A stretch of 64,000 nucleotides of DNA from assembly GCA_028030915.1 (NCBI GenBank), contig GCA_028030915.1_4867.1; one strand, given 5' to 3'. A program made the position numbers and the translations under genes. Below are positions 45,672 through 61,056 of the stretch, one piece after another. The notes beneath the pieces were generated by a model. The model worked only from the letters and a program-made list of their open reading frames with translations. It was not told the DNA's origin and did no database searches. Each line of letters begins with the position of its first letter. Position 1 is the stretch's first letter. Source of the stretch: a phage.

Positions 45672-46151
45672 TCATTGCACAAGGCAACTACTTTTGTGCC
45701 GTTCGTAGGCATGATTAAAAGACTCTCTGTCTTCGCGATAGCTGCGAATGAGAGACTTAATCTGTCGTGACAAATCACGACTAATGTCCTGAGGGCTACG
45801 AGAACCAGGGTCGAGATATATCCCGGAGGGTATATCATGAAGAGTGGGGCGAATAAACTCTTCACAAAGCGGTGCGGCCATCGGGGTGCGCCACCCCTTA
45901 GCTTCTGCGTAATTGTTCAACGACTTAGCGTACAGATAAACGTAATAAGCATAAGCGTTCACATCCGCAACAAACATTTTCCCTGCCAACTTTTTCGCCT
46001 CAGGACTGTTCCCACCAGCATAAACTGGTGGGTGTTCTAAAGGACGAAAAGGCCAATCTCCGGTTGAGGAGTAATCTGGGTCTACGTGACGGACGGCTCC
46101 AGGACATCCTGTCAACAATAGCACCAGTATCGCCACCAAAAATAACTTCAT
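45672..46151 (-). CDS. putative lipoprotein (159 aa)
   Basis: N-terminus MKLFLVAILVLLLTGC is a signal peptide with a lipobox (LTGC); immediately downstream of a membrane-protein gene. Confidence 0.55.
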   Translation of the reverse strand: MKLFLVAILVLLLTGCPGAVRHVDPDYSSTGDWPFRPLEHPPVYAGGNSPEAKKLAGKMFVADVNAYAYYVYLYAKSLNNYAEAKGWRTPMAAPLCEEFIRPTLHDIPSGIYLDPGSRSPQDISRDLSRQIKSLIRSYREDRESFNHAYERHKSSCLVQ

Positions 46152-49959: not shown

Positions 49960-50226
49960 CTAGTTACGGTCGGAATTAAAGACGTGCCAGGTACTACGCC
50001 AGCGGAAGAATCGGGTTATGAAACCACGTATGTGGTAGCCTGAGAACAACATCCAGATGGTAAGAAAGAGTTGCGCCCATGGGGACGTGAGTTCCATCAG
50101 ATGTGCGACAATCGCACCGATTACCAACATTACCGTGGAGAATAACAAACTATACATCATCGGAATGTTGTGGCTATAGCGTTTCTCCATCCAGTAGAGA
50201 AAATTTATTAAACGTTTCACGAACAC
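49960..50226 (-). CDS. small membrane protein with two predicted TM segments (88 aa)
   Basis: Hydrophobic stretches LLFSTVMLVIGAIVAHL and LFLTIWMLFSGY; a holin-like role is speculative. Confidence 0.45.
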   Translation of the reverse strand: MFVKRLINFLYWMEKRYSHNIPMMYSLLFSTVMLVIGAIVAHLMELTSPWAQLFLTIWMLFSGYHIRGFITRFFRWRSTWHVFNSDRN

Positions 50227-50277: not shown

Positions 50278-50871
50278 TTACGCTTCGGCCTCAAAGAACG
50301 GCTGGTTCGGTACCACTGCATATTCGAGCACGAAAAGATGTTCTGGGGCATCTTCTGCTCGCCACAGTTTGTGACACGTTGCCAGTTTTTCCAGGATGGT
50401 CAACCAGCTGAGCTGGCAGAAAGCACGATCGCCGAAGAACAGTTTCTGCAGTGCAATCGACACATCCATATACGCCTGTTTGAAGTCGAGTTCTTTATCG
50501 TAACCCGCCGACTGTCGCCACGTCAGCACGAAGCCTGCTTCGGTTTCGTTAATTGCTGGACGTAAACCACAAATCCACATCAGCGCCAGATTAACGTTCC
50601 AGTCGAATTCGATACCTTCGTCTTCGTCATCACCAAACGCCGCGTTTAACGCATCGTAGAAACCGTGGTTCTCTGCGAACCATTCGCCGTACTCAACGTA
50701 TACCGGTGCTTCGACAGCTTCCCCATCGACTTCACCGATAGGACGCTCTACATAGTTCGGGTTGGTTTGAACGTGTTCCGCACCCGCGCGAATTAATTCG
50801 TAGACATCTTTGGCGGTGATTTGTGCGGCTGTTTTAAGACCTGGATACCAGGGGCGTGTTACGAGTGTCAA
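50278..50871 (-). CDS. hypothetical protein (197 aa)
   Basis: ORF track. Confidence 0.55.
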   Translation of the reverse strand: MTLVTRPWYPGLKTAAQITAKDVYELIRAGAEHVQTNPNYVERPIGEVDGEAVEAPVYVEYGEWFAENHGFYDALNAAFGDDEDEGIEFDWNVNLALMWICGLRPAINETEAGFVLTWRQSAGYDKELDFKQAYMDVSIALQKLFFGDRAFCQLSWLTILEKLATCHKLWRAEDAPEHLFVLEYAVVPNQPFFEAEA

Positions 50872-51590
50872 AGCAATGCTCCTTTCATGATAGTGTTATT
50901 TGCCAGTAGTGTACCGGCCGCAGGTGATATTTTGGTGTACAGCGTATCCCAGATTTTCTGAAGTTCAGCGACGCGTTGGTCGTGGTCTTCCTTCGCAAAA
51001 GCAAGCTGACGTGTTTCAGCTTTCGGTGGTGTCATTTTCGCACCGTAGAATGCTGCGTCTTTTCGGTAGCTGGCCATCCAGCGTTTCCCGACCGGTGATT
51101 TCTTTTTAATCATCGCAACAGCAGCACCCTCACCGAAGCGGTAGCCTAAAGCGATTTCGGCTGTGCTCGGCTTGCGTTTGAGTTGTTTTGTCAGATGATC
51201 CTCGATGTGTTTCATGTAAACGGCAGCAAGCTGTACAGCATACTTCGGTTTATTAAGGTCCGCATTCTTTGGGATGTTAAGTTGTTTCCCATACAGACGT
51301 ATCATGGAGCGTTTAGTGCCTGTCGTCATTTGGACAACACTACTAGCACTGCTCGATTTATTCTTACCCACGTTTTTATTAAAACGGGATTCACGATAAA
51401 TGGTGGTCGCGAGCATCCCGGCATGTACGCCTTGTTTTCGAGATGCGGTGACGATGAGAGGTTTAATCTCATTGAACTGGTCCTGGATAAGGACGAATTC
51501 TTTTTGGTGTTTGTTACTGGTGGTCTGGTAAGAAGCGTTGCTGTTGAACGTAGTCATTGCTACCAGAAGAAACAAAATGGTGCGAAACAT
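50868..51590 (-). CDS. secreted lytic transglycosylase-like protein (SLT domain with N-terminal signal peptide)
   Basis: 240 aa; N-terminal MFRTILFLLVAMTTFNSNA is signal-peptide-like; SLT-like motifs TTIYRESRFN...SSASSVVQM and ALGYRFGEGAA. Confidence 0.6.
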   Translation of the reverse strand: MFRTILFLLVAMTTFNSNASYQTTSNKHQKEFVLIQDQFNEIKPLIVTASRKQGVHAGMLATTIYRESRFNKNVGKNKSSSASSVVQMTTGTKRSMIRLYGKQLNIPKNADLNKPKYAVQLAAVYMKHIEDHLTKQLKRKPSTAEIALGYRFGEGAAVAMIKKKSPVGKRWMASYRKDAAFYGAKMTPPKAETRQLAFAKEDHDQRVAELQKIWDTLYTKISPAAGTLLANNTIMKGALL

Positions 51591-54138: not shown

Positions 54139-54270
54139 ACTAAAATAACCATGATGCCAGAAATGCTCCGATTGCACAGATGATAATCGTAATGCCAAGG
54201 TCTGTCCAGGTGGCACCATCATACGCACCTGTTGCAATCATGGCTGCGTTGACACTATTCACGACTGTCA
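54139..54270 (-). CDS. tiny hydrophobic peptide (43 aa)
   Basis: Own translation MTVVNSVNAAMIATGAYDGATWTDLGITIIICAIGAFLASWLF; its ATG overlaps the end of the upstream small ORF; not in ORF track (<60 aa). Confidence 0.3.
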
Positions 54271-54458
54271 TAAGCCGGGTCCCTTAAACGCGGGGGCTTG
54301 CTCCACAGATTACCGAAGTAAACCCCTTCTAAGAACACCAAAACAACTAAGCCCCAAAAGGCAGGCGTAGCGCGAGACATGAAAATACCGAGTAGCACCA
54401 CAGTGTGCATTACCACAACTGCCCAAAACTTTAAACGACCAGGTTTACGTCTTGCCAT
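54255..54458 (-). CDS. small membrane protein (about 67 aa from internal ATG)
   Basis: ORF track 54255-54503; preferred start MARRKPGRLKFWAVVVMHTVVLLGIFM... overlaps the stop of the upstream 34-aa peptide; two hydrophobic segments. Confidence 0.4.
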   Translation of the reverse strand: MARRKPGRLKFWAVVVMHTVVLLGIFMSRATPAFWGLVVLVFLEGVYFGNLWSKPPRLRDPAYDSRE

Positions 54459-54549
54459 GGAATGCCCATCCTTTCGTGCGGATAATCCAACCCCAGGCAC
54501 CACGAATCAACCACAGTGCAATACCGGTTAATACGATACCTTCAATCAT
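54445..54549 (-). CDS. tiny hydrophobic peptide (34 aa)
   Basis: Own translation MIEGIVLTGIALWLIRGAWGWIIRTKGWAFHGKT; start overlaps stop of upstream ORF (ATGA); not in ORF track. Confidence 0.3.
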   Translation of the reverse strand: MIEGIVLTGIALWLIRGAWGWIIRTKGWAFHGKT

Positions 54550-57978: not shown

Positions 57979-58007
57979 AAAAAAAGAAGGTAGCCCGTAG
58001 GCTACCT
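57979..58007 (-). terminator. intrinsic terminator
   Basis: aaaaaaagaa ggtagcc cgta ggctacc. Confidence 0.55.
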
Positions 58008-58014
58008 CTCGTAT

Positions 58015-58521
58015 TTACAGCCCCATATGCATAAGGGAAATGATTGGGACCTTACGGCCACGAATCATTGCATACGGTTCGTACATTTGTGCGTTAGTTT
58101 CGAATAACTCACAGGCCGGAATGCGGTCACCGGTAGAGAGTTGCAAGACTTCAATTTGGTCGCCCCAGAAGTTATTCACCAATACATGGTCGACAGTGTT
58201 GTCTTCACGACCTTCAGGGGTGTTGCAATAAGTGGCTGCAGCGTACCAGCCCTTACGGTATACTTCATAACCCGCATGAAGCATCCGGTAGTACGGACGT
58301 AGTTGTGGGGCATTCAACGCAGCATCTAGCCACTCGCTGTGAATGCTGTTAATCAATACGGTCGCTTCTTCTGGCCAGTCGGTGCGGTTTAGGGTTAACT
58401 CGCCTAACAGCTTTAACTTCCAGCCAGTGGAAAGAATAGCGCGGGTACGTTCGGGATTGACGTTCATCTGAGTAAAGAAAGTAGAACGGGTATCGTCGAG
58501 AATGTTCATGTTCATTTGCAT
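58015..58521 (-). CDS. hypothetical protein (about 168 aa)
   Basis: ORF track 58015-58581; preferred start MQMNMNILDD at 58521 with aagga SD, because the 58581 start lies inside a hairpin. Confidence 0.55.
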   Translation of the reverse strand: MQMNMNILDDTRSTFFTQMNVNPERTRAILSTGWKLKLLGELTLNRTDWPEEATVLINSIHSEWLDAALNAPQLRPYYRMLHAGYEVYRKGWYAAATYCNTPEGREDNTVDHVLVNNFWGDQIEVLQLSTGDRIPACELFETNAQMYEPYAMIRGRKVPIISLMHMGL

Positions 58522-58534
58522 AATCCTTACGAGT

Positions 58535-58545
58535 AATAGTCGATT
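58535..58545 (-). promoter_or_regulatory. motif B, copy 2
   Basis: Plus-strand aatagtcgatt about 14 nt upstream of ATG 58521, downstream of hairpin 58553-58590. Confidence 0.3.
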
Positions 58546-58644
58546 AAAAAGGACCCTGCGGCTAAGTGTTGGGGATATCACCGCAGGGCCAAAGTGAGAT
58601 GGGTCGTCATCTCACGTTATAACATCTGTCTGAAAACTTTTCGG

Positions 58645-59028
58645 TTACTGGTCGAGCGCTACTGAACCACGCACCACCCCTTGCTGTTCAATAACCAGGA
58701 GGCGTTGTTTGGTTTTCGTATTGTAAGCGAGCGACGCGCGAAGCGTCGGGTCGCACGTTATTGTCTCTACTGGCACAATCTCTTGTGCCTTTGAGTTCAA
58801 CAGAAAGTAGTAACCTGCCGGACAAGTTTCCTCGCCCTTTGCGTGGACTAGGATGTACTCGTCGTGCCGGCTGACTTCTTCACATCTACCATCGTCGCCA
58901 GTACAGACTTCGAACGAAGGCGGGTTGTACTGATACGGTGTGCCTGGTAGTAAATCTTCTACGCTAGTTGTAGCTGAAGCAGAAGCGGTAAAGAACACCG
59001 CCACGATAATACCCATAAATCCACGCAT
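58645..59028 (-). CDS. small secreted Cys-containing protein (127 aa)
   Basis: N-terminal MRGFMGIIVAVFFTASASA looks like a cleavable signal peptide; 6 Cys in the mature part. Confidence 0.55.
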   Translation of the reverse strand: MRGFMGIIVAVFFTASASATTSVEDLLPGTPYQYNPPSFEVCTGDDGRCEEVSRHDEYILVHAKGEETCPAGYYFLLNSKAQEIVPVETITCDPTLRASLAYNTKTKQRLLVIEQQGVVRGSVALDQ

Positions 59029-59041
59029 GTTGTTTCCTTAC

Positions 59042-59452
59042 TTAAAAGTCGAGTTTATTGATGCCTACATTTTTCTTAATCGTAGGGTCATACATGATAA
59101 CCGTCAGGGCATTGTCGCCTGGGTCGCGTGTAAACTCAGCAACGGCTTCACCACTGCAGGCTTGGTTATCATTATAGTTCATGGATTCGGCTTGCCCGGT
59201 TGCCATGTTAATAACCCCGTATTCAGGGTCGCCACATGCGACACCGCCCATCGTTTTCACTAACAGGTAACGGTTGTTATCGGACATCGCAACGATCTGG
59301 CAGCTACCGCCTTGTACGTCAGAGTTCTGGCACCAGAACGGCCCGCCGTATTCGTGATCGTTAACAACTTTTGGTAACTCGATACTCCCAGCGCGAGCGA
59401 AGAAGCTAATGGCTAGAGTAGCAAGTAAAACTGGTAATAAAAAATGTTTCAT
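59042..59452 (-). CDS. small secreted Cys-containing protein (136 aa)
   Basis: Signal peptide MKHFLLPVLLATLAISFFARA; shares PFWC...C.(I/V)V motif with the next gene upstream. Confidence 0.6.
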   Translation of the reverse strand: MKHFLLPVLLATLAISFFARAGSIELPKVVNDHEYGGPFWCQNSDVQGGSCQIVAMSDNNRYLLVKTMGGVACGDPEYGVINMATGQAESMNYNDNQACSGEAVAEFTRDPGDNALTVIMYDPTIKKNVGINKLDF

Positions 59453-59474
59453 AATAGCACCTCAATTTTTTGAG

Positions 59475-59966
59475 TTATTCTGAATAGTCGATTGTTTTGA
59501 TGGTTTCCATACCGTAGTACATAGCGATGGAGGCCAGAGTTTTGGTATCCGGTCGCTGTACAAAACCGGCTCTGAAATCTTTGCTGCAAATTTTCTCCAC
59601 TGATAGTTCATCACGATTAGGGATAAGCCATAACGCGTCACCATTGTGACGGTCGACTGCACCCCACCAACCACCTGGGCAATCTTTATCGCCCGGACGG
59701 TGTACGATAGCGACACGACCGTTGAAGGATATGTCAACTACACGACACTGTTTCTTAAGCAGCTTACGCGCATTGCACCAGAACGGCTTATCATTAAGAT
59801 TGATGGTGCGGGTATATGCTGGAATGCTGCCGTTAATACTGCCCTGGAACCCGCTGAATTCGTCAGCGCGTGCCTTAGAAATCCGTAGCCCAACAACAAC
59901 TGCCATCAACAGCACAGTAAAAAGCACCACTTTGGCCAAGTGGCGATTAACGTTATTGCATTTCAT
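59475..59966 (-). CDS. small secreted Cys-containing protein (about 163 aa)
   Basis: ORF track 59475-60011; preferred start MKCNNVNRHLAKVVLFTVLLMAVVVGL (signal peptide); DKPFWCNARKLLKKQCRVV motif paralogous to 59042-59452. Confidence 0.55.
   Translation of the reverse strand: MKCNNVNRHLAKVVLFTVLLMAVVVGLRISKARADEFSGFQGSINGSIPAYTRTINLNDKPFWCNARKLLKKQCRVVDISFNGRVAIVHRPGDKDCPGGWWGAVDRHNGDALWLIPNRDELSVEKICSKDFRAGFVQRPDTKTLASIAMYYGMETIKTIDYSE
59483..59493 (-). promoter_or_regulatory. motif B, copy 3
   Basis: Plus-strand aatagtcgatt about 30 nt upstream of ATG 59452. Confidence 0.3.
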
Positions 59967-60354
59967 TTTTGATATCTCCACGATTGAGGGTGATGCGACC
60001 GACGAGCACATCGTTGTGATAAAAGCTCACAGCAACCAAATTCGGTAATTCCAGTGGCGATACACTGACCGAGGTGACTTTTGGTTGATTGCACGATATG
60101 TCGATTAACCGCTGATACATTTTCAATTTCTTATCAGCGATAACCAGCCCTGTGCAGTTCTTACCGTCCGTCAGTCTGTAGATTTGTAACTGTTCGACCT
60201 CACGCATCAGTTCCGGTTTTTCATTCGGTGCAATGCCATAATCCGAATCAGCTGATGTGTATTCAGTCACGTCTGGCTTATCGAAAGCATAAGTTGCTGC
60301 AATACCACATGCGGCCAGAACTACTACTGCTTGTAAGAACTTCTTGATAGTCAT
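59953..60354 (-). CDS. putative lipoprotein (133 aa)
   Basis: N-terminus MTIKKFLQAVVVLAACG with lipobox-like LAAC. Confidence 0.55.
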   Translation of the reverse strand: MTIKKFLQAVVVLAACGIAATYAFDKPDVTEYTSADSDYGIAPNEKPELMREVEQLQIYRLTDGKNCTGLVIADKKLKMYQRLIDISCNQPKVTSVSVSPLELPNLVAVSFYHNDVLVGRITLNRGDIKNEMQ

Positions 60355-60363
60355 GTTTTACTC

Positions 60364-60374
60364 TATAGTCGATT
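60364..60374 (-). promoter_or_regulatory. motif B, copy 4
   Basis: Plus-strand tatagtcgatt about 10 nt upstream of ATG 60354, downstream of hairpin 60380-60408. Confidence 0.3.
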
Positions 60375-60379
60375 GGTTT

Positions 60380-60408
60380 AAAAAAGAATAGGCTACCCGA
60401 GGGTAGCC
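60380..60408 (-). terminator. hairpin plus U-tract (terminator-like) in the 5' region of gene 59953-60354
   Basis: aaaaaagaata ggctacc cgag ggtagcc; lies between conserved motif 60430-60454 and the start codon, so it may act as a leader structure rather than a terminator. Confidence 0.45.
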
Positions 60409-60429
60409 AGTTGAGTTAATCTCTTAACT

Positions 60430-60454
60430 CTCACCTAAGTAATATATATCTGAG
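60430..60454 (-). promoter_or_regulatory. conserved intergenic motif A, copy 5
   Basis: ctcacctaagtaatatatatctgag; immediately after stop of gene 60460-61056. Confidence 0.4.
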
Positions 60455-60459
60455 ATATT

Positions 60460-61056
60460 TTACAATGTGAACGTTGTGTTAAGAATACGAAAACCCAATG
60501 CTCGCTTAGCGATTTGCATATTTGCAGGCGTGAAGTCCACCAGTTTGATTTGAACGATCGATAAATCGTAAAGCTTGTGAAGCACTTCGATTTTGTGTCG
60601 CCAATCTGTTTTTTGGTGCAGCTCTATCGTCGTTGGTATCTCGCCTAGTCTCGGCAACTGTGCTCCAAGTAAACGATGATGGACTTTACCGTTTATAGTT
60701 GGGGTGCCTTCCGTGACCATCAGTCGCGCATCGATGTAGTTATTTCGCTTAGCGTACTCCATAAAAGTTTTGACATTTATCTTTTCCTCGTATAGAATGC
60801 TGCGAAAGTATTCGTAAATGATGTGTCCTGCCTCCCTACCGCTTTCCGAGTCTGGAATAACCTTATCGATGAAAATCGCAGAGACCACTTCGCTCCCACG
60901 CGAATGCATTGTAATGACCCTATCCCCGTGCTCTGCGGCGGTTAATAATCCACTCACATCAAGCCCCACCGGAAACAAGCCACGACTACGCATTACGTGC
61001 AGGTCTTCTAACTTGTTCTCTTGCAGTCGTAAAATACGTTCTGTCATATACCACAC
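60460..61056 (-). CDS. hypothetical protein (198 aa)
   Basis: ORF track; SD gaggtg upstream. Confidence 0.55.
   Translation of the reverse strand: MWYMTERILRLQENKLEDLHVMRSRGLFPVGLDVSGLLTAAEHGDRVITMHSRGSEVVSAIFIDKVIPDSESGREAGHIIYEYFRSILYEEKINVKTFMEYAKRNNYIDARLMVTEGTPTINGKVHHRLLGAQLPRLGEIPTTIELHQKTDWRHKIEVLHKLYDLSIVQIKLVDFTPANMQIAKRALGFRILNTTFTL

What the first reader, a model, noticed from the sequence alone, without database searches (positions are those of the whole stretch)
58645..60354. Tandem cluster of four small secreted or lipidated Cys-containing proteins, two clearly paralogous
Four consecutive minus-strand genes each begin with a signal peptide (one with a lipobox) and encode 110-165-residue mature proteins with several cysteines. 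Two share the motif PFWC(Q/N)...C.(I/V)V at the same position. Each has its own upstream motif or terminator, suggesting individual regulation. Periplasm-targeted phage proteins in tandem arrays are candidates for superinfection exclusion or envelope remodelling.
Basis: partly seen in the sequence, partly recalled or inferred. Interest (0 to 1): 0.55.

Follow-up and report, generated by a model that had tools for sequence, protein, structure and literature searches.

The report
Exported four-gene paralog cassette, jumbo phage
Four neighbouring genes of a SPN3US-like giant Salmonella phage encode small exported, disulfide-type proteins that all share one predicted fold (two beta-propeller-like blades), and the same gene cassette also sits in CP4-type genomic islands of enteric bacteria next to the uncharacterised E. 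coli lipoproteins YfjS/YafY; its function is still unknown, and blocking of rival phages at the cell envelope is my best guess.

Summary
The window is a SPN3US-like jumbo phage; the four minus-strand genes are SPN3US gp183 (A), gp182 (B), gp181 (C) and gp180 (D), all annotated as hypothetical.

- **Export:** each has an N-terminal signal peptide that is conserved in orthologs.
- **Paralogy:** A, B and C are clear paralogs with four invariant Cys. D is a more distant relative with two Cys. The models of B (pLDDT 94) and D (pLDDT 87) have the same seven-strand layout, and both best match two adjacent beta-propeller blades.
- **Two details fail:** D's lipobox is not conserved in orthologs. The genes are packed 13-22 nt apart or overlap between two flanking hairpins, so they look like one operon rather than four separately regulated genes.
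- **New link to bacterial islands:** the C-B-A block is colinear (72% nt identity over 856 nt) with a cassette in enterobacterial CP4-57/CP4-6-type islands, where it follows a YfjS/YafY lipoprotein (Pfam PF20494). Phage C is closer to the island copy than to C of a congeneric phage.
- **Function:** there is no hit to any characterised family. Envelope-level exclusion or protection is plausible (about 0.35) but untested.

Moderately interesting: an uncharacterised periplasmic fold family exchanged between phages and islands.

The parts
59953..60354 (-). Gene D (= SPN3US gp180), 133 aa. Exported 2-Cys protein, about 110 aa when mature, phrog_9424.
60286..60354 (-). Signal peptide of D (MTIKKFLQAVVVLAACGIAATYA|FDKP). 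It contains a LAAC lipobox-like motif that is not conserved.
   Evidence: Orthologs lack the Cys or have non-canonical -1 residues, and end in SFA|D, VSA|P or TYA|F sites.
59475..59966 (-). Gene C (= gp181), 163 aa. Exported 4-Cys protein, phrog_17072. Its start overlaps the end of D by 14 nt.
   Evidence: 71% aa identity to island protein P0073 and 49% to the E. coli ES6 island protein.
59865..59966 (-). Signal peptide of C (MKCNNVNRHLAKVVLFTVLLMAVVVGLRISKARA|DEF).
   Evidence: Island homologs have a different signal peptide ending AHA|DEFSGFQG at the homologous position.
59042..59452 (-). Gene B (= gp182), 136 aa. Exported 4-Cys protein, phrog_8968.
59390..59452 (-). Signal peptide of B (MKHFLLPVLLATLAISFFARA|GSIELP).
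58645..59028 (-). Gene A (= gp183), 127 aa. Exported 4-Cys protein, phrog_5248.
   Evidence: cross-hit to phrog_8968 at E 1e-3. Four Cys aligned with B and C.
58972..59028 (-). Signal peptide of A (MRGFMGIIVAVFFTASASA|TTSVEDL).
60391..60408 (-). Terminator-like hairpin plus U-run between gp179 and D. It marks the upstream boundary of the four-gene unit.
   Evidence: Fold -14.3 kcal/mol, z -5.3.
58594..58615 (-). 8-bp hairpin (GUGAGAUG..CAUCUCAC) 30 nt after the stop codon of A, with a weak U tail. Probable downstream boundary.
   Evidence: Fold z -2.3. Not called by the terminator scan.

Best explanation
**Shown**
- The region is one compact, probably co-transcribed cassette of four Sec-exported small proteins (SPN3US gp180-183).
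- A, B and C belong to a single fold family, and D probably does too. The fold is a roughly 110-residue all-beta domain built like two adjacent beta-propeller blades.
- The family has an invariant Cys pair placed before strand 3 and in the strand 4-5 loop. A, B and C also have a second Cys pair near the N-terminus.
- The family is rare: 37 clusters among 1.84 billion representative proteins.
- It is confined to SPN3US/Erwinia-type jumbo phages and to CP4-57/CP4-6-type integrative islands of Enterobacterales. In the islands the same gene order (YfjS/YafY lipoprotein, then C-like, B-like, A-like) occurs, and alleles have been exchanged with the phages more than once.

**Inferred**
- The signal peptides are cleaved by signal peptidase I.
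- The Cys pairs form DsbA-dependent disulfides in the periplasm.
- The four proteins act there as stable binding modules.

**Most likely role (about 0.35)**
Envelope-level protection of the infected or island-bearing cell against other phages. This would be superinfection exclusion in the manner of T4 Sp/Imm, P1 Sim or T5 Llp: binding a periplasmic or outer-membrane component, or a tail-tip enzyme that an incoming phage needs. The paralogs would cover different targets.
For: - **Identity:** 96-98% nt identity to Seoulvirus genomes; the genes are gp180-183.
- **Export signals:**; conserved in orthologs and in nearly all remote homologs.
- **Paralogy of A, B and C:** PHROG cross-hits and four invariant Cys.
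- **Operon layout:**
- **Purifying selection:**
- **Island cassette:** L023 carries YfjS_YafY, then a C-like gene (71% aa), a B-like gene (71% aa) and an A-like remnant. One 856-nt blastn match at 72% identity spans genes and spacers. The same YfjS-then-C-like pairing occurs in E. coli ES6, Mixta and Edwardsiella; in Yersinia rohdei the C-like gene is present without an adjacent YfjS-like gene.
- **Repeated exchange:** window C is closer to the island copy (65-71% aa) than to C of SPAsTU (43%). C of phiEaH2 is 69% identical to the Yersinia rohdei island copy.
- **Defence context:** the islands carry defence genes next to the cassette backbone (Gabija-like OLD nuclease plus UvrD helicase in L009; AbpAB and RnlAB in CP4-57).
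- **Not virion proteins, as far as checked:** they are not mentioned in the main text of the SPN3US virion and essential-gene study (PMC5105663).
Against: - No experiment or homology ties any of the four proteins to exclusion.
- There are no hits in Pfam, NCBIfam, PADLOC or PDB sequences.
- dN/dS is low, with no sign of an arms race at whole-gene level.
- The expression time is unknown; the SPN3US infection proteomics paper could not be read.
- Export is predicted by a hand-made rule, not by SignalP or by experiment.
- The only functional datum for the nearest named family is that YafY overproduction activates Cpx (PMC6538781). That says nothing about phages.
Confidence: 0.4

Rival explanations
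1. Periplasmic regulators or inhibitors of peptidoglycan hydrolases. They would either hold the phage's own exported transglycosylase (window 50868-51590) in check until lysis, or neutralise lysozyme-type enzymes from outside (an Ivy- or Spackle-like logic).
For: - In E. coli and related islands the B-like gene sits next to a 295-312-aa exported protein. Its N-terminal half resembles Ivy (Pfam PF08816, E 0.0074; a C-x4-C-G loop like CKPHDCG). Its C-terminal domain belongs to this family (A6 profile, E 6e-5 to 3e-7).
- The window encodes a 240-aa transglycosylase homolog with a signal-like N-terminus.
Against: - The Ivy match is below Pfam's gathering score, and no Ivy chain was found by sequence in the PDB.
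- None of the four proteins matches Ivy, MliC/PliC, PliG or PliI by sequence.
- The islands have no matching endolysin.
Confidence: 0.2
2. Two-blade propeller fragments that assemble into a closed ring, either as homo-oligomers or as a hetero-oligomer of the gene products. The ring would act as a periplasmic lectin or scaffold binding envelope glycans, as RSL and BambL do with three two-blade chains.
For: - Both models match two adjacent blades of many propellers.
- Relatives carry three or four family genes, which would give six or eight blades.
Against: - No multimer prediction could be run.
- The E. coli islands carry one or two copies, not a fixed set.
Confidence: 0.1
3. Accessory 'moron' cargo whose benefit is unrelated to phage competition, such as envelope stress signalling or host interaction. 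It would have been picked up from host islands and be dispensable for the phage.
For: - In the islands the cassette shares a variable slot with IrmA-family and YfjT/YkfB secreted proteins.
- YafY overproduction activates the Cpx response (PMC6538781).
- Content varies among related phages: C is absent in Machina, ChrisDB and Wellington, and Wellington has an extra paralog.
Against: - D, B-like and A-like genes are kept at the same position, upstream of the SbcC-like gene, across at least five genera of jumbo phages.
- dN/dS is 0.05-0.2. This argues for a function used during lytic infection.
Confidence: 0.15
4. The hydrophobic N-termini are not export signals, and the proteins stay in the cytoplasm or are membrane-anchored.
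For: - No dedicated predictor was run.
- The hydrophobic stretch of D is 19 residues and that of C is 15, followed by a charged c-region, so either could act as a signal anchor.
Against: - All four, and nearly all of about 30 remote homologs, have n-h-c regions with A-x-A-type sites.
- Signal sequences diverge while the mature N-terminus is conserved.
- Invariant Cys pairs fit an oxidising compartment.
Confidence: 0.04

Closest known systems
YfjS/YafY lipoprotein domain (Pfam PF20494; E. coli K-12 cryptic prophages CP4-57 and CP4-6)
   Same: - Small exported enterobacterial proteins with two Cys at equivalent alignment positions and a similar C-terminal strand motif (FYHxxxxVGRITL in D, YSHDGKLMGRLLI in YfjS).
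- In the islands the YfjS/YafY gene directly precedes, and overlaps, a C-like gene, just as D precedes and overlaps C in the phage.
- Weak but in-register profile matches: A/B/C against the YfjS family, E 4e-4, 71 columns.
- The A/B/C-only HMM picks up all the YfjS-like ORFs as its only non-family hits in the fetched island loci (E 0.005-0.06).
- Function is unknown in both cases.
   Different: - None of the four phage proteins reaches PF20494 even at E <= 1.
- D against YfjS shows no BLAST similarity, and hhalign gives only 4-20% probability.
- YfjS/YafY are true lipoproteins (LSAC|D). The phage proteins have signal peptidase I-type signals.
- A, B and C have an extra N-terminal Cys pair.
Phage periplasmic or envelope superinfection-exclusion proteins (T4 Sp and Imm, P1 Sim, T5 Llp, phi80/N15 Cor)
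   Same: Small phage-encoded proteins exported to the envelope that are not mentioned in the main text of the SPN3US virion and essential-gene study. Relatives also sit on resident mobile elements. This comparison is drawn from my own knowledge of these systems.
   Different: There is no sequence or family match (Pfam, PHROGs function and PADLOC), the predicted fold differs, and no phenotype is known. This is a functional analogy only.
Oligomerising two-blade beta-propeller fragments (designed Pizza2/Pizza3 and Ika; WD40 fragment 6r5x; RSL/BambL lectins from memory)
   Different: - No internal sequence repeat.
- A disulfide links the two halves.
- An N-terminal extension with a short helix is present in B.
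- The oligomeric state is unknown and sequence identity is 7-13%.
Ivy-family lysozyme inhibitors (PF08816)
   Same: Periplasmic. A weak Ivy-like domain is fused to a domain of this family in island proteins encoded next to B-like genes.
   Different: The four phage proteins themselves have no Ivy similarity, and the Ivy-like match in the neighbouring protein is below the curated cut-off.

Membership tests
Pfam PF20494 YfjS_YafY | Match to the family HMM at or above the gathering score (27 bits) | tested here: not met
   There was no hit at E <= 1 for A, B, C or D, or for 25 remote homologs. K-12 YfjS itself scores 228.6 bits.
Pfam PF20494 YfjS_YafY | Lipoprotein signal (lipobox with Cys+1) preceding the domain | tested here: not met
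   A, B and C have A-x-A sites and no lipobox. D has LAAC, but orthologs lack the Cys (SPAsTU, P0037, P0045) or have a non-canonical -1 residue.
Pfam PF20494 YfjS_YafY | Remote homology by profile comparison, and conserved Cys pair | tested here: inconclusive
   - hhalign, A/B/C against 5 YfjS-like sequences: probability 35%, E 4e-4.
- hhalign, D against the YfjS-like sequences: probability 4%, E 0.011.
- Both alignments cover about 71 columns with both Cys in register.
- Reversed-profile controls score 9-17, against 20-27 for the real comparisons.
Pfam PF20494 YfjS_YafY | Genomic position in the yfjR-ypjK-yfjS-yfjT slot of CP4-type islands | tested here: met
   This holds by positional equivalence only. 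Island order is YfjS-like, C-like, B-like, A-like remnant; phage order is D, C, B, A.
Single paralog family A/B/C/D | Significant sequence similarity among the four | tested here: met
   - A, B and C are linked by PHROG cross-hits (3e-8 to 7e-3) and invariant Cys.
- D is linked only by profile comparison: E 3.8e-5 at 71% probability, or E 1.4e-4 at 52%. Its link is therefore weaker.
Single paralog family A/B/C/D | Same three-dimensional fold | tested here: met
   - Only B and D were modelled (pLDDT 94 and 87).
- Both have seven strands in the same order, with the Cys at equivalent places.
- A direct superposition of the two models was not possible.
Beta-propeller proteins (WD40/TolB-like) | Four or more blades forming a closed ring within one chain | tested here: not met
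Beta-propeller proteins (WD40/TolB-like) | Ring closure by oligomerisation of fragments | not testable with these tools
Known superinfection-exclusion or defence proteins | Homology to a characterised exclusion or defence protein | tested here: not met
   PADLOC gave no hits. The PHROG families are all 'unknown function'. Pfam and NCBIfam gave nothing.
Known superinfection-exclusion or defence proteins | Exclusion phenotype when expressed | not testable with these tools
   This needs an experiment.
Periplasmic lysozyme inhibitors (Ivy, MliC/PliC, PliG, PliI) | Sequence or fold match | tested here: not met

The most novel reading that the evidence does not exclude
The cassette is a new class of envelope-level anti-phage (exclusion) module that moves between lytic jumbo phages and CP4-type islands. 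It is built from disulfide-stapled two-blade propeller fragments that assemble in the periplasm into a hetero-oligomeric ring (four genes times two blades). The long-uncharacterised K-12 genes yfjS and yafY would be members of the same system.
Probability: 0.1. Interest if true: 0.75.

Novelty: new variant of a known kind. Interest (0 to 1): 0.45.

Why it matters
- **Unexplored biology:** giant nucleus-forming phages are studied almost only for what they do inside the cytoplasm. A conserved operon of four exported proteins points to an unexamined periplasmic side of their infection cycle.
- **A handle on K-12 y-genes:** the link to CP4-57/CP4-6-type islands gives a concrete, testable lead on yfjS and yafY and on a variable 'secreted cargo' slot present in many Enterobacterales.
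- **Gene flow:** the cassette shows repeated exchange between strictly lytic jumbo phages and host islands.
- **Practical relevance:** if the proteins exclude other phages, this matters for phage-cocktail design with SPN3US-like therapeutic or biocontrol phages.
- **Structural interest:** the two-blade fold with an inter-blade disulfide may be useful to people working on propeller evolution.

Tried and rejected
- **Family libraries:** Pfam, NCBIfam and PADLOC scans of the four proteins found nothing. PHROGs gave only 'unknown function' families.
- **PDB sequence searches:** profiles of A/B/C, of D, and YfjS itself gave nothing meaningful.
- **Ivy check:** the N-terminal domain of the 312-aa island protein found no Ivy chain in the PDB.
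- **Fold libraries:** afdb50 was not available. BFVD returned only family members from Erwinia jumbo phages, then noise.
- **Promoter motif:** the phiKZ-type early-promoter-like TATATTAC upstream of D occurs 4 times in the window against 1.4 expected, and 5 of 100 shuffles reach that count, so I dropped it.
- **Hairpin inside the 5' end of C,** a possible D/C attenuator: z -1.1 and absent in SPAsTU and phiEaH2, so I rejected it as chance.
- **Lipoprotein reading of D:** rejected as a conserved feature.
- **Literature:**
  - No paper links SPN3US gp180-183 to a function.
  - The SPN3US infection-proteomics paper is not held.
  - One broad literature search was uninformative.
- **Genome scans:** the first genome-contig scan with C alone found nothing, and alignment A4 was too divergent for pattern search.
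- **Contexts of remote homologs:** P0089 and P0068 lie on contigs too short to be informative.
- **hhalign settings:** '-M first' on alignments led by mature sequences gave much weaker numbers than the later run with signal peptides trimmed and more sequences. The remote links (D, YfjS) are therefore sensitive to how the alignment is built.
Full report
**What the window is.** The region 58000-61000 is 96-98.6% identical to Seoulvirus genomes (SPN3US, SPLA3, SEGD1 and others). SPN3US belongs to the phiKZ-like group of jumbo phages (from my own knowledge). The four ORFs are SPN3US_0183 to SPN3US_0180, that is gp183 (A, 58645-59028), gp182 (B, 59042-59452), gp181 (C, 59475-59966) and gp180 (D, 59953-60354). 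All lie on the minus strand and all are annotated as hypothetical.

**Checking the observation.**
- All four begin with a positively charged n-region, an uncharged hydrophobic core and a small-x-small site. The likely cleavage sites are A ASA|TTS, B ARA|GSI, C ARA|DEF and D TYA|FDK.
- A simple scan of my own over 74 non-overlapping window ORFs flags 9 with such N-termini, and these four are consecutive.
- The signals are kept in orthologs from Salmonella and Erwinia jumbo phages, and in nearly all of about 30 remote homologs.
- For C, bacterial homologs carry a different signal peptide that ends at the same mature N-terminus..TPAHA|DEFSGFQG. This is good comparative evidence for cleavage.
- The PFWC(Q/N)..C.(I/V)V motif of B and C is present.
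- Mature sizes are about 108-129 residues.
- dN/dS against SPN3US, SPAsTU and phiEaH2 orthologs is 0.05-0.21, so these are real, constrained genes. The plus-strand ORFs over the region are antisense shadows.

- *Lipobox.* D has LAAC in SPN3US-type phages. In SPAsTU, pEa_SNUABM_29 and a metagenomic ortholog there is no Cys in the signal region. In the Erwinia-phage orthologs the Cys sits mid-helix with a Val at -1, and a canonical SFA|D or VSA|P site follows. The conserved feature is a signal peptidase I signal, not lipidation.
- *Individual regulation.* D and C overlap by 14 nt, the C-B spacer is 22 nt and the B-A spacer is 13 nt, each with its own ribosome-binding site.
  - A strong hairpin plus U-run (60408-60391, z -5.3) lies upstream of D.
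  - An 8-bp hairpin (58615-58594, z -2.3) follows A.
  - The terminator-like hairpin inside the 5' end of C is weak (z -1.1) and is not conserved in SPAsTU or phiEaH2.
  - The layout is that of one transcription unit.

**Paralogy.**
- PHROG profiles cross-match among A (phrog_5248), B (phrog_8968) and C (phrog_17072), with E from 3e-8 to 7e-3. D (phrog_9424) has no cross-hit.
- Alignments of A/B/C-type proteins from five phage genera show four invariant Cys. D-type proteins have two invariant Cys.
- With signal peptides trimmed, hhalign of A/B/C against D gives 71% probability and E 3.8e-5 over 73 columns, with both D cysteines aligned to Cys3 and Cys4. Reversed-profile controls score 13 against 32 (an earlier run gave 52%).
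- The D profile also weakly detects a two-Cys member of the A/B/C family (P0080, E 0.005).

**Structure.**
- AlphaFold2 on the family alignments gives confident models: mature B has pLDDT 94 and pTM 0.87; mature D has pLDDT 87 and pTM 0.78.
- Both have seven main strands in the same order plus a short N-terminal strand. The conserved Cys sit just before strand 3 and in the strand 4-5 connection.
- Foldseek against BFVD finds only family members from Erwinia jumbo phages.
- No sequence relative has a solved structure.
- I therefore describe the fold as a disulfide-stapled two-blade propeller-like domain. Whether it oligomerises could not be tested.

**Distribution in phages.** tblastn finds the family only in SPN3US-like and Erwinia jumbo phages. 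Those whose loci I inspected belong to Seoulvirus, Erskinevirus, Machinavirus and Wellingtonvirus. The cluster always lies at the same place, upstream of two genes of about 170-200 aa and the SbcC-like gene. Its content varies:

| Phage | Family genes in the cluster |
|---|---|
| SPN3US, SPAsTU, phiEaH2 | D, C, B, A |
| Machina, ChrisDB | D, B-like, A-like |
| Wellington | D, B-like, A-like plus one extra paralog |

SPAsTU, phiEaH2, ChrisDB and Wellington also have an extra gene of about 80 aa just upstream of D; the window, SPN3US and Machina lack it.

**Overall rarity.** An exhaustive HMM search of 1.84 billion representative proteins finds only 37 clusters at E <= 1e-3, so the family is rare.

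**The link to bacterial islands (new).**
- A 136-aa E. coli protein (P0024, 45% identical to B) lies in a CP4-type integrative island. The island order is AlpA, YfjP-like GTPase, WYL regulator, (cassette), DUF932, antirestriction, RadC, DUF987, CbeA/CbtA, and a Gabija-like OLD nuclease plus UvrD pair lies nearby. The protein occurs in 78 of 5426 complete E. coli genomes, for example at the thrW site of an O157:H7 strain.
- In contig AAMVFX010000004.1 (L023) the order is YfjS_YafY lipoprotein (PF20494), then a C-like gene (71% aa identity), a B-like gene (71%) and a frame-broken A-like remnant fused to a yfjT-like 3' end.
- One blastn match of 856 nt at 72.4% identity runs from mature C through both spacers into A (window 59867-59012 against L023 8070-8922).
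- The pairing of a YfjS/YafY lipoprotein with a C-like gene recurs in E. coli ES6, Mixta tenebrionis and Edwardsiella hoshinae. Yersinia rohdei has a C-like gene directly after the WYL regulator.
- Window C is closer to the island allele (65-71% aa) than to C of the congeneric phage SPAsTU (43%) or of phiEaH2 (45%). C of phiEaH2 is 69% identical to the Y. rohdei island gene. Alleles have therefore moved between islands and jumbo phages more than once. The direction cannot be told from these data.
- In K-12 the corresponding slot holds yfjS-yfjT (CP4-57) and yafY-ykfB (CP4-6).

**Relation to YfjS/YafY.**
- None of the four phage proteins hits PF20494, and D shows no BLAST similarity to the island lipoprotein.
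- Profile comparisons are weak but coherent. A/B/C against five YfjS-like sequences gives E 4e-4 at 35% probability. D against YfjS gives E 0.011. All three pairwise comparisons align the same block of about 71 columns with both Cys in register, and all score above the reversed controls.
- In the fetched island loci, the A/B/C-only HMM finds the YfjS-like ORFs as its only non-family hits (E 0.005-0.06).
- Taken together with the positional equivalence of D and YfjS, I consider a common superfamily probable but not proven.

**Function.**
- Nothing characterised matches these proteins.
- According to PMC6538781, YafY is an inner-membrane lipoprotein of unknown function whose overproduction activates Cpx.
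- The proteins are not mentioned in the main text of the SPN3US virion and essential-gene study.
- Two contextual clues exist. First, the cassette sits on elements rich in anti-phage genes. Second, B-like genes in the islands neighbour exported proteins of 295-312 aa that combine a weak Ivy-like domain (E 0.0074, below the cut-off) with a C-terminal domain of this family.
- A function useful both to a lytic phage and to a resident island, carried out by stable periplasmic binding domains in diversified copies, is most simply envelope-level exclusion or protection. I put this at about 0.35.
- Control or inhibition of peptidoglycan hydrolases is the main rival, at about 0.2. The window also encodes an exported transglycosylase homolog at 50868-51590.
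- Ring-forming lectin-like assemblies (about 0.1) and phage-unrelated accessory cargo (about 0.15) remain open.

**Verdict.** The finding is a rare, uncharacterised periplasmic fold family organised as an operon and exchanged between jumbo phages and CP4-type islands. It is a new variant of the known theme of phage-encoded exported accessory proteins, of moderate interest, and its function remains to be shown.

Noticed in passing
window 50868-51590 (-): A 240-aa ORF with a signal-like N-terminus (MFRTILFLLVAMTTFNSNA|SYQ) that matches PHROG 4067 'transglycosylase' (E 1e-57). It may be a Sec- or SAR-exported endolysin or lytic transglycosylase.
   Followed up: partly
window 45672-46151 (-): A 159-aa ORF with a canonical lipobox (MKLFLVAILVLLLTG|C), phrog_8165, function unknown. 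It is a better lipoprotein candidate than gene D.
   Followed up: partly
window 49960-50226 (-) and 54255-54503 (-): Two small ORFs (88 and 82 aa) with a single hydrophobic helix near the N-terminus. They could be membrane proteins (holin- or spanin-type candidates); I did not examine them further.
   Followed up: no
L009 8476-9414; L022 7060-7947; L011 9477-10415: Enterobacterial island proteins of 295-312 aa encoded next to B-like genes. Each has a signal peptide, a weak Ivy-like domain (C-x4-C-G loop; Pfam Ivy E 0.0074), a Pro-rich linker and a C-terminal 4-Cys domain of the phage A/B/C family.
   Followed up: partly
L023 8907-9230: In the island cassette the A-like gene is broken. An intact signal peptide and the start of the mature protein are followed by a stop, then an out-of-frame CPAGYYFILDS segment joined to the 3' end of a yfjT/ykfB-like gene. 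This looks like a deletion scar.
   Followed up: partly
L004 1833-2072; L008 1845-2084; L005 2348-2599; L006 2261-2506: Several related phages (phiEaH2, SPAsTU, ChrisDB, Wellington) have an extra gene of about 80 aa without a signal peptide just upstream of D. It is absent from the window, from SPN3US and from Machina.
   Followed up: no
L016 2728-3177; L017 3838-4290; L026 8112-8564: IrmA-family secreted proteins and a DUF4339/GYF_2 membrane protein share the same variable island slot. IrmA-like and island C-like proteins carry nearly the same signal peptide (..SLCLLTPAHA and ..SLYLLTPAHA), which hints at cassette shuffling behind a common leader.
   Followed up: no
phage records LR5359xx (SPFM series): Several SPFM genomes match this region in 39 short pieces, with frameshifted or truncated versions of the four genes. 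This looks like an assembly-quality problem rather than biology.
   Followed up: no
window 57987-58008: A bidirectional terminator-like hairpin (GAGGTAGCC..GGCTACCTT plus a T-run) lies between gp185 and gp184, so the genes downstream of the cluster form separate units.
   Followed up: no
L020 (ENA ERZ14207113 NODE_244): A two-Cys member of the A/B/C family (P0080) lies on a 13.7-kb metagenomic contig full of small unknown ORFs plus a thymidylate kinase. This may be another large phage outside the SPN3US/Erwinia group.
   Followed up: no
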